Assembly (NCBI RefSeq): GCF_039654945.1
Contig: NW_027361825.1
Span: 33,356,001-33,420,000, forward strand
Direction of reading: 5' to 3'
Length of the DNA: 64,000 nucleotides
Origin: Dendrobates tinctorius
Lineage: Eukaryota
Shown here: one piece after another, positions 12,001 through 18,000 of the stretch
Position numbering within the stretch: the first letter of the stretch is position 1
How the letters are laid out: each line of letters opens with the position of its first letter
Position numbers: made by a program

Positions 12001-15000
12001 CGGAGGTTAGCTTACAGATGTTTTTCCATTTTGGCATGTTAGGATAGGTGATAACTTGTTGATCATTGGGGGTATGAGAGTTGTTTTCCTGATAATCCTG
12101 AGAACACAAACAGGTAGCGGGCACCTGTTCAAAAGTGTTCATTTCATTGTTTATGGAATGGCTGCTGCAGCAATCGGATATCTCCCATAGATAATAAAGG
12201 AAGCAGTGGTGAGCATGCAGAAACCCATTCTCAAGTTAGAGACAGCTTCTTTAATACTGAAAAAAAGCTATTTTTTCTCATACCACGGTGAGCTAAAGCA
12301 AAATAGTCATCAGAATGTTTTGTCTAGAATGGTGATATGAATAATGGAGTTAAAAGTAATAACACAGGAGGACTAGGCTTGTGACAAGGGTAAAGCCAGC
12401 ATCCATGGTCATCTAAAAGATATGAGCTCTGTAGAGGGGTAAATTCCAGCATTGCTGGTAGCCTAATGTATAAAAGGATTTAGGGTTGCAATGCAGTTAA
12501 TAACATGTTTTGCCAAAAATAAGGCTTGCCCTGAAAATAAGCCCTTGCATGATTTACAGGATTTTTAGAGCATGGTTGAAATATAAGCCCTACTCCAAAA
12601 ATAAGCCCTAGTTACAGTCAAGGCCAACATTAGGAAGGAAAGGGCAAACTGGGGATCCCACTCTCTTGATGTCACCAAAGGTCCTTTCACTTTTGGAGTC
12701 TAGAGGAATTGAAGTAAAGACAGTCTGGTATGTAGGGTCGGCGTTAGAGGGCAGAAAGAAGCAAACTGGGCAATTTCTCAGTGGCCCCACTCTCTTAGGG
12801 GACCCCAGCAATTCTATTCTGAGGTTAAGACTGCTTAAGGACCTTTACTGATATCACGGTTATGTGACCATAATGTCCACCAAAGGTCCTTTAACTGTCG
12901 GAGTCTAAATGAACGTTAGAGGAGACAGGCTGGTATGTGTAGTCTGTGTGTATATTCATTTGTATTGGCTGTGTGTGTGAGTGTGTGTATGTGTGTATGC
13001 AATGTGTCTCTGTGACGATCATATTTAAGTAAATGTCGACTTTTTTATTCAAGTATAAATGTGGATTGTTGTTCATGGAAAAGAAAATAAGACATCCCCT
13101 GAAAATAAACCCTAACCCATTTTTTGGAGCAAAAAATAAAAGACAGTGTCTTATTTTCAGGGAGCACGACACCAGCATTTTAGTAAAGTGGTTAATGTTA
13201 GAATCCCTGGTGGTCTAGAGTAGTGATAGTACATGCTGCTTCTTCTTCCGGTCCGACCCCAATCCTGGACAACTGAGCAAGACAGGAGATATAGAAGATT
13301 GTTGTGATAACCAGTTGTTGAATATTTTCCTTCAAGTGGTCTGAAGTGTTCTAATAAAGCATAAAACACATTTTTCAGGCCACCAAATGGGTGTCAGACT
13401 TATTCATCAGATTTTCCCAATTACGGCTGCTAATATTTCCTGTTAGTTTATTTATATCAATAGCACTACAGCTATCATCACTAAACCTGTAAATCGGTTT
13501 AGCACCTGCTATTAGTTATTTAGGTATCCTACACAAGCAATAGAGGCTGGGTGATAACCACTAATAGAAGCCATTATAGTGACAAATTCAGCCACAGAAT
13601 ATTATATAAGATTTCATCCAAAATAGCTACCACGTTTCCCCAAAAATAAAACTTACTCCTAAAATAAATCCTAGCATGATTTTACAGGATTTTTGGCGTT
13701 TTCTTGAAATACAAACCCTACGCCAAAAATAAGCCCTAGTTACAGTCATGGCCAGCATTAGGGGGAGTAACACTGGTCAATAGCCCAAGGCCCCCACTCT
13801 CTTAGGGGCCCCCATTGTTTCTATTCTGAGGTTAGGAGTGCTTACGGACCTTTGGTGACTTCACAGTCATGTGATCATGATTAGAGATGAGCGAATTTGT
13901 TCGGATTCTGTTCCGAATATGATTGGCATCAAATATTGCTTTTGCAATATTTGTCGAACACAGCCAAAAGTCATTAGAGTGAATGGGAGTAGAAATTACC
14001 AAATATGTTCAGAACCGATCATCAAACATACATTCAGCATGAATAGAGTTCGAATATGGCACGAATCTGTCAAAATCAGATTCGGAGACAAACCGAACAA
14101 ATTTGCTCTTCTCTAATCATGGTGTCATTAAAGGTCTATTAAGTTCAGTGCTTGTAAATACATATGGATAGATCAGAAAGGTAGTCCGATCTATCCATGA
14201 TCACTATGGCGCCTCCTTTATCAGCCGGTTTTATGACCAATGATTTATCAACATCTGGCCAAAACTTAGGTTTAGCTTACTACATAGTAATGAGAGGATG
14301 AGCTTCTTGGACACGTTGGTCTGTAAGAATAAGAGAGAATTATCAATAGACTTATATGTCCAACCTACTGACAGAAACAGTATCTTACACTTCAATAGTT
14401 TTCATTCTCCAGCCATTAAGAGATCTATCCCTAGATCCCAATACTGCAGGGTCAACAGAATTGTCACTGATGTTGAGACAAGAGAATGGAGGTTAGAAGA
14501 AATGACCAAAAAAAATCACTGAAAGGGGTTATCCCAGTGGACTTCTACTAGAATCTAGATCCACTAGAAATACCAGGGCCTCTAACCAAGGTAAACGGAT
14601 GCCATTTGTAAATACATTCCACCCCTATTCCAGGAAGATTCAGGCCACCAATAATAAGCACTGGAACATTCTGACAAATAGCTACCCGAGATACCGGAGT
14701 TTCAACAATCTATTCTTCCATGTTACCGGAGACCAAAAAATTTGAGGGACAGATTAGTAAAGGCAGATGCAGGTTCTAATACCATGGTATCGAGACAAAC
14801 TTTTCTCCGGACACAGAAACGGGGAACTTTTCCTTGTCTAGCGTGTTTGCAATGTAACCATATACAGAAGGGGCACCAAATTTTTCATCCACTAACTGGA
14901 CGGGCTATTCTGGTCAAAGGATTCTATACATGTGAATCCACCTATGTTGTATATTTGATCAAATGTCCATGTGGCCTTGCCTATGTAGGCGAAACGACCC

Positions 15001-18000
15001 AAATGATAAAGGACAGAATATCCCAACATAAATCCAATATAAGATGTAAGAGGACCCATCTCCCCCTACCATTCCATTTTCTCAACAAAGGACACAGCAT
15101 TTCTCAACTAAAGTTCCAGGTTCTGGAACAAATTGAACCCAACAGGAGGGGTCAAGATAGAACCCGGATTCTTAAGAGAAGAGAGGCTTACTGGATTTTC
15201 ACCCTCGATACTTTGGAACCTAAAGGACTCAATAGAGACTATGATATACAAGGATTTCTATGAGATAAACTATCCCCTATTTATTATGCACATATTCCAT
15301 AGGGCATGATATTATCATACTATTGTAGGATTAGCATACAAGCCTATTTTTTGTCTATTGTTTTTTTACTTATAATGCTCTTTTCTCTCTTTCTTTATAA
15401 TAGAATCGTTAGATCTTCTCTTCGTCATCCCACTGGGTACTTCTGTCTACTTGGTAATATAGTGAAAAATGAGGATGAATGAACTCATGGAGATCAACAT
15501 CCAACACTGCGCAGACACCATCACATGTTTCTCAGCGCAGTGATTTTAGAGCAATAGGAAATATGTAAAAACATGCAAAACACAAGCCACGGAGACACCA
15601 TCACATGTTTCTCAATGCAAGCAATGACTAGGCAGGTCTTTCCTCGGGAAGGAACAACCATGGGAAGGGCAGTCTCCAATGAAGGAAACCACCTATGCCA
15701 AAACATGGTATCCATCCACAGACAGCTGTTTCGGGGTATTGCCCCTCATCAGTGTGGAGTAGGAAACTGGCCAGTAGGAGCAATGCCTAGTAGAAGACTG
15801 TGAAAAATGAGGATGAATGAACTCATGGAGATCAACATCCAACACTGCGGAGACACCATCACATGTTTCTCAACACAGTGATTCCAGAGCAAAGCCCCCA
15901 TCCCTTATGGGAAATATGTAAAAATATGCAAAACACAAGCCGCGGAGACACCATCACATGCTTCTCAACGCAAGCAATGACTAGCCAGGTCTTTCCCCGG
16001 GAAGGAACAACCATGGGAAGGGCAGTCTCCAATGAAGGAAACCACCTATGCCAAAACATGGTATCCATCCACAGACAGCTGTTTCGGGGTATTGCCCCTC
16101 ATCAGTGTGGAGTAGGAAACTGGCCAGTAGGACCAACTCCTAGTAGAAGACTGTGAAAAATGAGGATGAATGAACTCATGGAGATCAACATCCAACACTG
16201 CGGAGACACCAAAACATGTTTCTCACCGCAGTGATTCTAGAGCAATGCCCCCATCCCTAATGGGAAAAATGTAAAAACATGCAAAACACAAGCCGCGGAG
16301 ACACCATCACAAGTTTCTCAATGCAAGCAATGACTAGCCAGGTCTTTCCCCGGGAAGGAACAACCACGGGAAGGGCAGTCTCCAATGTAGGAAACCACCT
16401 ATGCCAAAACATGGTATCCATCCACATGATATACAAGGTTTTCTATGAGATAAACTATCCCCTATTTATTATGCACATATTCCATAGGGCATGATATTAT
16501 CATACTATTGTAGGATTAGCATGTAAGCCTATTTTTTGTCTATTGTTTTTTTACTTATAATTCTCTTTTCTCTCTTTCTTTATAATAGAATCGTTAGATC
16601 TTCTCTTCATCATCCCACTGGGCACTTCTGTCTACTTGGTAATATATGCACCTCACAGTATATAGTTTAATGTACTGTACAGAGAGTGTGATCTCTCGGG
16701 TTTATAACATACCTTTTTCAGTTTACATAATCTTTAGGCCCACATAATATGCATATTTATAATGGTTTTCTATTTCAACAGCAGCCATATCTAAGTGATT
16801 ATCCCCATTTGTTTTAGGTAGACACTATTCAATTGTTCACACGATACAGGCGCAGCTACCCCGGTCACATGACCACTATGATGTGCACGGGCATCCACAA
16901 CCCTTAGTGACATGTGCAATATCTGGAACACTATCGCTCCCACAATACAAACGCAATCAGTGGCAACATGTGACCGTGGTGACGCGGCTCAATGGGCGGT
17001 CCCACCGGGTCTCACACCCGGAAGTGCATACTGGCACTGGGCGTCCTCTGCTTACAGCGAGACATATCGTACGCCGGACGAGGCCGCTCCACAGGTACGT
17101 CAGGGACATATATCCACTACTGCTGACATATAGCCATCCTGTTTTGTATCCTGGACATAATCAACATGGTGGTCCCCTTCTTTTTCCTTTCTTTAGCGCC
17201 ATTCAACAGCGATAAATCGCCATACTATAGCGCTACTTACTTGCAACATTCAGGTAATCAGTAATATCTCTTTTGATTCAAAAATAGGGAACCATATTGC
17301 TGCATATTTTTTCCTGATCCACAGGGATTTTCTTTGCTGCATATTATTGTGGACTATACATATACATATAATATAGCACTGTATAAGCGAGTTGGTCTAA
17401 CTTCACTTTTCCTTTTTTCCTCCAAGGAGGAACAGCCTATTTAGACCACGTATAGCACAAGCAGTATCGCTTCCGATATTGAAATGGGCACAAATTGCAC
17501 CGAGCACTGTAGAGCACTTATATCCTTTACTACCAGTGAGGAGTTTCACTTGTGATTTCACCCATGTCCTAACATGTACAATGAGTAGTATTCTTCTCCT
17601 TAACACCGAGTACTATATAAAATCACACTTATTGACTATAAGATGCGTATCTTTTTGGACCTGTGTCTGTTCTCCGAGATTGAAAGTATATACAGTTGAC
17701 ATGTGATGTTATAATTCAACGTCTTTCTTTCTTTATTAATATGCATCTTATTTAATTTTGTTTCTGTTTCTGTTATGAACTGCAGATCTCTATACAATCT
17801 CTGATGAAGGTCCTATGTTGCGACCGAAAACGTTTAGAGTAATGCTATCTGGATGCCAATAAAAATAGATCAACTTTTTTCACGATTTTGAGTGCCAAGT
17901 TGTTTATCATTTACCTGTGGTATTCTGGTCAGAGGTGACCAGCGCTGCGGTGTTGTTCCCCTGAGACTGCTGGTGTGTCGCAGCTGAGGTGAAAATAGTC

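What the first reader, a model, noticed from the sequence alone, without database searches (positions are those of the whole stretch)
14240..17912. Retrozyme fused to a Penelope element through a 221-bp duplication
Seen: array 1 sits antisense just after the GIY-YIG ORF, bracketed by a 221-bp direct repeat of the Penelope 3' region (15241-15461 and 16426-16646, about six mismatches). The element has its own hammerhead at 17796-17840. Established: Penelope-like elements carry minimal hammerheads and form partial tandems and inversions. Inference: either an unusually long TSD or co-integration by template switching of a Penelope RT, which would physically link the retrozyme to its presumed helper.
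Basis: partly seen in the sequence, partly recalled or inferred. Interest (0 to 1): 0.68.

Follow-up and report, generated by a model that had tools for sequence, protein, structure and literature searches.

The report
Retrozyme array nested in dead Penelope
A short tandem array of hammerhead-ribozyme repeats has inserted, backwards, into the tail of a dead Penelope-like retrotransposon in a frog intron, duplicating about 220 bases of its target; it looks like an ordinary nested insertion with an unusually long target duplication, not a fusion of the two elements.

Summary
A 221-nt direct repeat (15241-15461 and 16426-16646, 6 mismatches) brackets a 2.73-unit array of a 353-nt hammerhead repeat whose ribozyme sense is the minus strand. 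The array lies in the 3' region of a Penelope-like element (PLE).

The PLE is dead: it keeps only residues 560-904 of a 904-aa relative, has a stop and a frame excursion, and carries an inverted 5' piece. A PLE-type minimal hammerhead motif sits at 17801-17840.

The "fusion / co-integration" reading is not supported:
- In ribozyme sense the array begins, within one ambiguous base, at the predicted hammerhead self-cleavage site. This is the expected run-off end of a cDNA copied from a self-cleaved RNA.
- Its antisense orientation would need an antisense template and two template jumps.
- A second array of the same family (23448-24169) sits in a hAT/ZBED transposase gene. Its 8-bp target duplication is confirmed by an uninterrupted homologue.
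- Private substitutions per unit (16/965) are close to the per-copy divergence of the repeat (3/221), so array and duplication may be the same age (counts too small to prove it).

Best reading: target-primed retrotransposition of a multimeric retrozyme RNA into an old PLE copy, with second-strand breakage about 220 nt away. Genome-wide enrichment near PLEs could not be tested.

The parts
14167..14250 (-). Inverted fragment of the PLE reverse-transcriptase region (matches residues 287-314 of a 904-aa relative), abutting and overlapping the start of the direct part
   Evidence: tblastn of P0001 against the window: 20 of 28 residues identical on the minus strand
14232..15263 (+). PLE ORF remnant covering the C-terminal RT/thumb and the GIY-YIG endonuclease (residues 560-904 of 904). 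It has an in-frame stop at 14241-14243 and a frame excursion between about 14520 and 14700. The natural C-terminus and stop (15261-15263) are kept.
   Evidence: tblastn 56% identity over 347 aa; Pfam GIY-YIG E 1.6e-6; 58 relatives with E<=0.001, mostly anuran proteins carrying RT and GIY-YIG domains
15241..15461 (+). Copy A of the 221-nt (220+1) direct repeat: last 7 codons plus stop of the PLE ORF and the start of its 3' region
15462..16426 (-). Retrozyme array 1, 2.73 units of 353 nt in ribozyme sense: u1 16426->16074, u2 16073->15721, u3 15720->15462 (259 nt, with a 15-nt deletion). Predicted cleavage sites lie after C16074 and C15721. The sense 5' end at 16426 is the first base after a cleavage site.
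16426..16646 (+). Copy B of the direct repeat (base 16426 shared with the array)
16647..17864 (+). Rest of the PLE 3' region up to a candidate element end. The exact end is not established: an 8-nt match ATAGATCA at 14168-14175 and 17865-17872 is only a weak candidate for the PLE's own target duplication.
   Evidence: two 8-mer matches were found between the two flanks searched, so a single 8-mer match is not significant; continuity with copy B
17801..17840 (+). PLE-type minimal hammerhead motif: CUGAUGA, unpaired A, helix II GGUC/GACC closed by G-C, GAAA, palindromic AACGUU, U, then AGAG
   Evidence: Features compared with the min-HHR description in PMC4209133 (passages read). No Rfam hit.
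23448..24169 (+). Retrozyme array 2 of the same family (2.05 units, plus-strand sense), used as a comparison. It is flanked by ACATCTTG at 23443-23450 and 24166-23173+1000 (that is, 24166-24173).

Best explanation
Array 1 is a nested retrotransposition.

Proposed sequence of events:
1. A linear, more-than-unit-length RNA of a 353-nt non-LTR retrozyme was made. Its 5' end came from hammerhead self-cleavage.
2. The RNA was reverse-transcribed at a nick in the plus strand of an already resident, defective PLE copy (nick at ...GGTAATATA^TGCACC, 15461/15462). Priming was at an internal site of the RNA, just after a U-run (...CAUUUUUCAC).
3. The cDNA ran 2.73 units to the very 5' end of the RNA.
4. 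The opposite strand was broken, or synthesis restarted, about 220 nt upstream. Fill-in then duplicated 220-221 nt of PLE sequence on both sides of the insert.

Shown:
- the repeat, the array and its orientation;
- the coincidence of the array's end with the predicted cleavage site;
- the broken state of the PLE;
- the independent 8-bp-duplication insertion of the sister array.

Inferred:
- the RNA intermediate;
- the order of nicks;
- which enzyme did it. A PLE-type RT/GIY-YIG endonuclease acting in trans is the published candidate, but nothing here identifies it.
For: 1. Junction at the cleavage site. In ribozyme sense the array starts UGUGGAUGG, and the internal unit boundaries ...GAAACAGCUGUC|UGUGG fall exactly 353 and 706 nt further on. 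The array end next to copy B is therefore the first base 3' of the GUC cleavage triplet, with one base of ambiguity. By my own arithmetic, the chance for one end is about 2 in 353, and about 2% for any of the 4 array ends in the window.

2. Clean flanking duplication. The repeat is 221 nt with 6 mismatches. There is no microhomology at the left junction, 1 nt at the right, and no filler.

3. Same age is compatible. Private substitutions in array 1 are 16 of 965 nt (1.66% per unit) against 3 of 221 per repeat copy (1.36%). Unit 1 versus unit 2 (17/353) against the repeat (6/221) gives Fisher p = 0.28.

4. The family inserts on its own. A ZBED4-like homologue (P0059) aligns residues 1-545 up to 23449 and residues 543-775 from 24164. 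The homologue is uninterrupted and the target codons are duplicated, which gives an 8-bp TSD.

5. Published precedents.
- TSDs of 8-10 bp are reported for PLE and PLE-mobilised inserts in a rotifer (PMC3846280, passages).
- Metazoan retrozyme TSDs, when present, are said to be larger than 4 bp (PMC7229834, passages).
- Tandem duplications of 1-10 kb at L1 insertion sites are described as large TSDs (bioRxiv 10.1101/2024.12.14.628481, passages).

6. The PLE is older and decayed, as expected of a passive target.
Against: - The case rests on one locus. The sister array's 5' end is not at a cleavage site: it lies near unit position 143-146, so only 1 of 2 sense 5' ends fits.
- A duplication of 220 nt is far longer than the 8-10 bp reported for PLE-type insertions and the 8 bp of array 2.
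- The empty site of array 1 could not be checked, because no other copy of this PLE is in the window.
- The cleavage site is predicted from the motif. Rfam does not score this ribozyme above threshold and no cleavage was measured.
- Two internal ribozyme sites stayed uncut in the supposed template.
- The divergence comparison has low power (6 and 16-17 differences).
Confidence: 0.65

Rival explanations
1. DNA-level event without an RNA intermediate. A broken or stalled replication end in the PLE switched template (MMBIR/FoSTeS-like) or captured a piece of a genomic retrozyme array. It then re-entered the PLE about 220 nt behind, giving an insertion flanked by a duplication.
For: Insertion plus flanking duplication with 0-1 nt of microhomology is also what replication-based template switching produces (my own knowledge, not from a call). 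Break-induced replication is the mechanism proposed for large TSD-like duplications at L1 sites. A 220-nt duplication is atypical for endonuclease stagger.
Against: It gives no reason for the array to end exactly at the ribozyme cleavage site (about 2 in 353 by chance). Array 2 has a short 8-bp TSD typical of target-primed insertion.
Confidence: 0.15
2. The composite arose in one event, when a Penelope RT copying PLE RNA jumped to a retrozyme template and back, re-copying 221 nt. This would physically couple the retrozyme to its helper.
For: PLEs are known for complex tandem and inverted insertions and proposed template jumps (PMC3846280 and PMC8557442, passages). This very copy has an inverted 5' piece at 14167-14250. 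PLEs are the published candidate helpers of animal retrozymes (PMC7761336, passages; bioRxiv 10.64898/2026.07.22.740005, abstract, Results part 1 and Discussion).
Against: - The array is antisense to the PLE, so the template would have to be an antisense retrozyme strand whose 3' end complements the sense cleavage site.
- Two jumps are needed.
- The unit has no similarity to this PLE's tail.
- The sister array integrated without any PLE sequence.
- The PLE copy is truncated and broken.
Confidence: 0.08
3. The nested insertion happened in another PLE copy. The present locus is a retro-copy (5'-truncated, 5'-inverted) of that composite transcript.
For: Nothing in the window excludes it. The PLE's own integration marks (inverted 5' piece) are independent of the array.
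Against: No second composite copy is in the window. It adds a step without explaining anything further.
Confidence: 0.07
4. Assembly artefact that falsely duplicates 221 nt around a repeat array.
For: PLE and tandem-repeat structures are known to trouble assemblies (PMC8557442, passage). The window contains N gaps at 2433-2564 and 3168-3538.
Against: The two copies differ at 6 positions. Both junctions are clean and there are no Ns nearby. One junction falls on the cleavage site, which an artefact would not explain.
Confidence: 0.03

Closest known systems
Metazoan non-LTR retrozymes (Cervera and de la Pena 2020, PMC7229834; amphibian type with a short helix III that acts as a dimer)
   Same: - Tandem units of 353 nt, within the 170-400 nt range.
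- One type I hammerhead core per unit.
- G+C 0.47-0.49.
- No coding capacity detected.
- Strongly self-paired predicted fold (z -2.42, 0 of 100 shuffles as good).
- Helix III of 2 bp with a palindromic AGCU loop.
- Target duplications longer than 4 bp.
   Different: Circular RNA and self-cleavage were not tested. No Rfam family is reached at threshold. One insertion has a 220-nt duplication. The array end at the cleavage site is not described in the passages I read.
Penelope-like elements of vertebrates (RT plus C-terminal GIY-YIG, minimal hammerhead in the terminal repeat)
   Same: The ORF remnant is 56% identical over 347 aligned residues (P0001), or 71% over the 193-aa C-terminal ORF, to anuran proteins carrying RT and GIY-YIG domains. 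It also shows 5' truncation, an inverted 5' piece, and a min-HHR-like motif with an unpaired base before helix II, a G-C closing pair and a palindromic helix III.
   Different: No second terminal repeat (pLTR) is visible and helix I is only 3 bp. The clade (Neptune, Poseidon or other) was not determined. The copy is non-functional.
LINE-1 insertions with large target-site duplications, and chimeric retrocopies made by template switching (for example U6/L1; recalled, not from a call)
   Same: An insert flanked by a long direct duplication of target DNA, with the 5' end of the insert at the 5' end of the RNA template.
   Different: No poly(A) and a different enzyme family. Template-switch chimeras place both parts in the same orientation, whereas here the parts are opposed.
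Li, Clavereau and Pollet 2026 preprint: animal retrozymes as non-autonomous derivatives of PLE terminal repeats
   Same: Retrozymes and PLEs occur together in an amphibian genome.
   Different: That work rests on co-occurrence and on sequence relatedness of units to pLTRs. In this window the unit shows no similarity to the tail of the PLE it sits in or to other window sequence. The adjacency here is a nested insertion, not descent.

Membership tests
Non-LTR (metazoan) retrozyme | Head-to-tail tandem units of roughly 150-450 bp | tested here: met
   Period 353, 2.5-2.7 copies at 95% matches for array 1; 2.0 copies at 98% for array 2
Non-LTR (metazoan) retrozyme | A type I hammerhead in each unit, with a conserved core (CUGAUGA ... 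GAAA ... H), helices I and II, and a short palindromic helix III | tested here: inconclusive
   The core, a 4-bp helix II (GGGG/CCCC), a 6-bp helix I (UCCACA/UGUGGA), helix III AC/GU with an AGCU loop, and a GUC triplet are present and identical in all 4 complete copies. Rfam hammerhead models are not reached: the best is 16 bits against a gathering score of 48.5.
Non-LTR (metazoan) retrozyme | Low G+C (<50%), no LTR, PBS or PPT, no ORF | tested here: met
   G+C 0.47-0.49. There are no terminal repeats other than the target duplication. PBS and PPT were not searched for explicitly.
Non-LTR (metazoan) retrozyme | Target-site duplications flanking the array | tested here: met
   8 bp for array 2, confirmed against an uninterrupted homologue. 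220-221 nt for array 1, whose empty site was not verifiable.
Non-LTR (metazoan) retrozyme | Self-cleavage and accumulation as circular RNA | not testable with these tools
   Needs transcription and cleavage assays and northern blots or RNA-seq
Penelope-like element (EN+) | Single ORF with a PLE-type RT followed by a C-terminal GIY-YIG endonuclease | tested here: met
   The remnant covers residues 560-904 of a 904-aa relative. GIY-YIG Pfam E 1.6e-6. Most of the RT core is missing from this copy; only an inverted 28-aa piece remains.
Penelope-like element (EN+) | Minimal hammerhead in the terminal region | tested here: inconclusive
   A descriptor match at 17801-17840 is improbable by chance (5 hits in the window against a shuffle mean of 0.005). 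It has the published min-HHR traits. Helix I is only 3 bp and there is no Rfam support.
Penelope-like element (EN+) | Pseudo-LTRs from partial tandem insertion; frequent 5' truncation and inverted 5' copy | tested here: inconclusive
   5' truncation and an inverted piece are present. No pLTR pair was found in the window. The 221-nt repeat is internal, not terminal.
Template-switch chimera (co-integrate of helper and passenger) | Both parts in the same orientation, joined at the passenger RNA's 3' end, within one set of target duplications | tested here: not met
   The array is antisense to the PLE. The junction next to the downstream PLE part is the passenger's sense 5' end. The duplication is of PLE sequence, not of the PLE's own target.

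The most novel reading that the evidence does not exclude
The template for integration of animal retrozymes may be, at least sometimes, a linear multimeric RNA whose 5' end is made by hammerhead self-cleavage, rather than a monomeric circle copied by rolling-circle reverse transcription. It would be inserted by target-primed reverse transcription that starts at internal U-rich sites without a poly(A), with a second-strand break anywhere from 8 to about 220 nt away. The array end at the cleavage site would then be the first structural footprint tying ribozyme processing to the integrated DNA.
Probability: 0.3. Interest if true: 0.6.

Novelty: new member of a known kind. Interest (0 to 1): 0.38.

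Why it matters
How animal retrozymes move is still an open question. The papers I read propose a circular RNA template and a PLE helper, but say the units show no motif that reveals the machinery (PMC7761336) and that life-cycle evidence is limited (2026 preprint, Discussion).

This locus does not show a physical or functional coupling of retrozyme and Penelope. It does give a clean insertion anatomy:
- two independent insertions of one family, both with target duplications;
- one insertion ending at the predicted ribozyme cleavage site.

That turns a loose idea into a cheap genome-wide test: where do array ends fall within the unit, and how long are their flanking duplications?

Tried and rejected
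- Rfam at gathering score on the whole window found no hammerhead, only an SSU-rRNA-like fragment. At E<=10 on 13500-25500 it found no hammerhead. Small-stretch scans gave only sub-threshold hits for the retrozyme ribozyme and none for the PLE motif.
- The loose pattern CTGATGA-N(8-36)-GAAA gave 8 hits. Three are not ribozymes: 12274 and 13373 have no helix II, and 34406 lies inside a Tc1-like transposase coding sequence. It was replaced by a stricter descriptor.
- I looked for another copy of this PLE in the window to serve as an empty site and found none.
- Similarity between the retrozyme unit and any PLE tail or other window sequence: none at E 1e-5. With 7-nt words, only one 14-nt chance match turned up.
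- The PLE's own target duplication: only a weak 8-mer candidate, no better than chance.
- Rolling-circle copying of a monomeric circle versus a heterogeneous multimer could not be decided. Unit 1 has 9 private changes against 4.8 expected (Poisson P = 0.055). Units 1 and 3 share three variants, two of them at CpG sites.
- Genome-wide enrichment near PLEs was not possible.
- Supplementary tables of the 2026 preprint (retrozyme families per species, Repbase matches) were not consulted because supplements are closed. They may already list this family.
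Full report
**What is there.**

The window comes from an anuran genome. Three kinds of coding remnant have their closest relatives in dendrobatid frogs:
- a P450 exon, 90% identical to a Ranitomeya CYP2F2-like protein;
- a hAT transposase, 68-80% identical;
- a PLE ORF, 56-71% identical.

The CYP2F2-like gene runs on the minus strand. Its exons were located with a database protein at 59156-58995, 48984-48832, 32346-32179, 11421-11227 and on down to 9215-9006. I searched one exon on its own and did not join exons. 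Everything discussed here lies in the roughly 20.8-kb intron between 11421 and 32179.

**The Penelope-like element.**
- Plus-strand sequence 14232-15260 aligns with residues 560-904 of a 904-aa Ranitomeya protein (56% identity over 347 aa). It reaches the relative's natural C-terminus.
- ORF 14682-15263 has a Pfam GIY-YIG domain (E 1.6e-6).
- The copy is dead. Residues 1-559 are missing, there is an in-frame stop at 14241-14243, and the reading frame leaves and re-enters between about 14520 and 14700.
- An inverted piece of the RT region (residues 287-314, 20 of 28 identical) lies at 14250-14167 on the minus strand. This kind of 5' inversion is described for PLEs (PMC8557442 and PMC3846280, passages).
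- Downstream, at 17801-17840, is a motif with the traits of PLE minimal hammerheads as given in PMC4209133 (passages): CUGAUGA, one unpaired base, a helix II closed by G-C, GAAA, and a palindromic helix III segment.
- A strict descriptor finds only 5 sites in the window, this one and the four retrozyme ribozymes. The mean over 200 shuffles was 0.005. Rfam does not detect the motif and its helix I is only 3 bp.
- No second copy of this PLE is in the window. Three remnants of more distant PLEs are present: 38934-39773, 42459-43406 and 42173-41721.

**The array and the repeat.**
- The 221-nt repeat (15241-15461 and 16426-16646) has 6 mismatches.
- Between the copies lie 965 nt of a 353-nt tandem unit.
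- The hammerhead core is on the minus strand. It reads UCCACA-CUGAUGA-GGGG-CAAUA-CCCC-GAAAC-AGCU-GUC|UGUGGA.
- Helix III has 2 bp with a palindromic loop. This is the amphibian arrangement said to cleave as a dimer (PMC7229834 and PMC4209133, passages).
- The unit has G+C of 0.47-0.49. It folds better than all 100 shuffles (z -2.42).
- Rfam gives only sub-threshold hammerhead hits.

**The key junction.**
- Read in ribozyme sense, the array begins UGUGGAUGG at 16426. The next two GAAACAGCUGUC boxes end exactly 353 and 706 nt later. The array's sense 5' end is therefore the first base after the predicted cleavage site.
- Base 16426 (A) could equally be the first base of repeat copy B, so the duplication is 220 or 221 nt.
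- The other junction (15461|15462) is unambiguous, with no microhomology. It falls inside unit 3, just after CAUUUUUCAC.
- A cDNA that runs off the 5' end of a self-cleaved RNA explains the first junction directly. By my arithmetic, chance would give it about 2 times in 353 for one end.

**The sister array.**
- Array 2 (23448-24169, plus-strand sense, 2.05 units) interrupts a ZBED4-like hAT transposase gene. A zf-BED Pfam hit lies at 22211-22516.
- A Ranitomeya homologue aligns residues 1-545 up to 23449 and residues 543-775 from 24164. The homologue is uninterrupted and the codons for ...HL are present on both sides. ACATCTTG at 23443-23450 and 24166-24173 is therefore a true 8-bp target duplication.
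- Seven of those eight bases also match the unit (TTG at the left junction, ACAT at the right). This suggests microhomology at both junctions.
- The sense 5' end of array 2 is not at a cleavage site.
- The family therefore inserts on its own, without PLE sequence. Its duplication length matches the 8-10 bp reported for PLE-type events.

**Ages.**
- Private substitutions are 16 of 965 nt in array 1 (9, 2 and 5 in the three units) and 4 of 722 nt in array 2.
- The repeat copies differ at 6 of 221 positions, which is 3 per copy.
- So 1.66% per unit compares with 1.36% per repeat copy. The array is not detectably younger or older than the duplication, as a target duplication predicts.
- Pairwise unit divergence (17/353) against the repeat (6/221) gives Fisher p = 0.28, so power is low.
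- Array 2 has proportionally fewer private changes.
- Whether the template was a heterogeneous multimer or a rolling-circle copy of one unit stays open. Unit 1 carries 9 private changes against 4.8 expected (P = 0.055), and units 1 and 3 share three variants.

**Interpretation.**

The simplest account is a nested target-primed insertion of a retrozyme multimer into an old PLE copy, with an unusually distant second-strand break or restart. Long duplications of this kind are on record for L1.

The co-integration idea needs an antisense template ending at the complement of the sense cleavage site, plus two template jumps. It gains nothing from the sister array or from the state of the PLE.

A purely DNA-level template switch would produce the same insertion-plus-duplication pattern. 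It leaves the cleavage-site junction as a coincidence.

Nesting in a PLE is not remarkable here. The window holds at least four PLE remnants, and only 1 of 2 arrays is in one.

The published link between retrozymes and PLEs rests on co-occurrence and pLTR similarity. This locus adds nothing to that link, because the unit is unrelated to this PLE's tail.

**What stayed unchecked.**
- The empty site of array 1.
- The PLE's exact 3' end.
- The supplementary tables of the 2026 preprint.
- Any experimental cleavage.

Noticed in passing
23443-24173: A second array of the same 353-nt retrozyme (plus-strand sense, 2.05 units) is inserted in a ZBED4-like hAT transposase ORF. It has an 8-bp duplication ACATCTTG, 3-4 nt of microhomology at each junction, and fewer private substitutions (4/722) than array 1.
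   Followed up: yes
9006-59156 (minus strand): A CYP2F2-like P450 gene spans most of the window. Both arrays and the PLE lie in its roughly 20.8-kb intron (11421-32179). The ribozyme sense of array 1 is the same as the gene's, so host transcription would produce sense hammerhead multimers from the intron. Array 2 is antisense to the gene.
   Followed up: partly
14167-14250: An inverted 84-nt piece of the PLE RT region (residues 287-314 of a relative) abuts the 5'-truncated direct part and overlaps it by about 18 nt. This is a twin-priming-like 5' inversion of the PLE itself.
   Followed up: yes
38934-39773; 41721-42173 (minus); 42459-43406: Three further remnants of more distant PLEs (27-36% identity to the same query proteins). 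The last two face each other head to head. No hammerhead descriptor hit lies near them.
   Followed up: partly
27667-28391 (minus): A fragment resembling eukaryotic SSU rRNA (Rfam RF01960, 232 bits, with large internal deletions relative to the model) inside the P450 intron. It is probably a decayed rRNA-derived insert.
   Followed up: no
13880-14118: A MITE-like element of roughly 240 bp with terminal inverted repeats (TTAGAGATGAGCGAATTTGTTCGG ... inverted) lies immediately upstream of the PLE.
   Followed up: partly
34406-34439: A CTGATGA...GAAA match with a 7-bp stem looks like a hammerhead, but it lies inside a Tc1/mariner-like transposase coding sequence (...[13 protein letters not shown]...) and fails the G-C closing-pair rule. 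It is a chance match and shows that the loose pattern alone is not evidence.
   Followed up: yes
49967-51025; 20927-21359; 26832-27225; 5955-6353 and 7916-8074: Other tandem arrays (416 nt x 2.5; 131 nt x 3.3; 135 nt x 2.9; 74 nt x 5.4 and x 2.1). None has a hammerhead core or an Rfam hit at gathering score. Their nature was not examined.
   Followed up: no
15461/15462, 15240/15241, 23442/23443, 24173/24174: Three of the four inferred nick sites of the two insertions are followed by AG on the nicked strand (ATGT^AGAC, TCAT^AGTC, CTTG^AGGC). The fourth is ATATA^TGCA. The sample is too small to call a target preference.
   Followed up: no
20290-20336: A perfect short hairpin gives a sub-threshold mir-981-like Rfam hit on both strands (24 bits against a gathering score of 51). 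It is probably a palindrome in a repeat.
   Followed up: no
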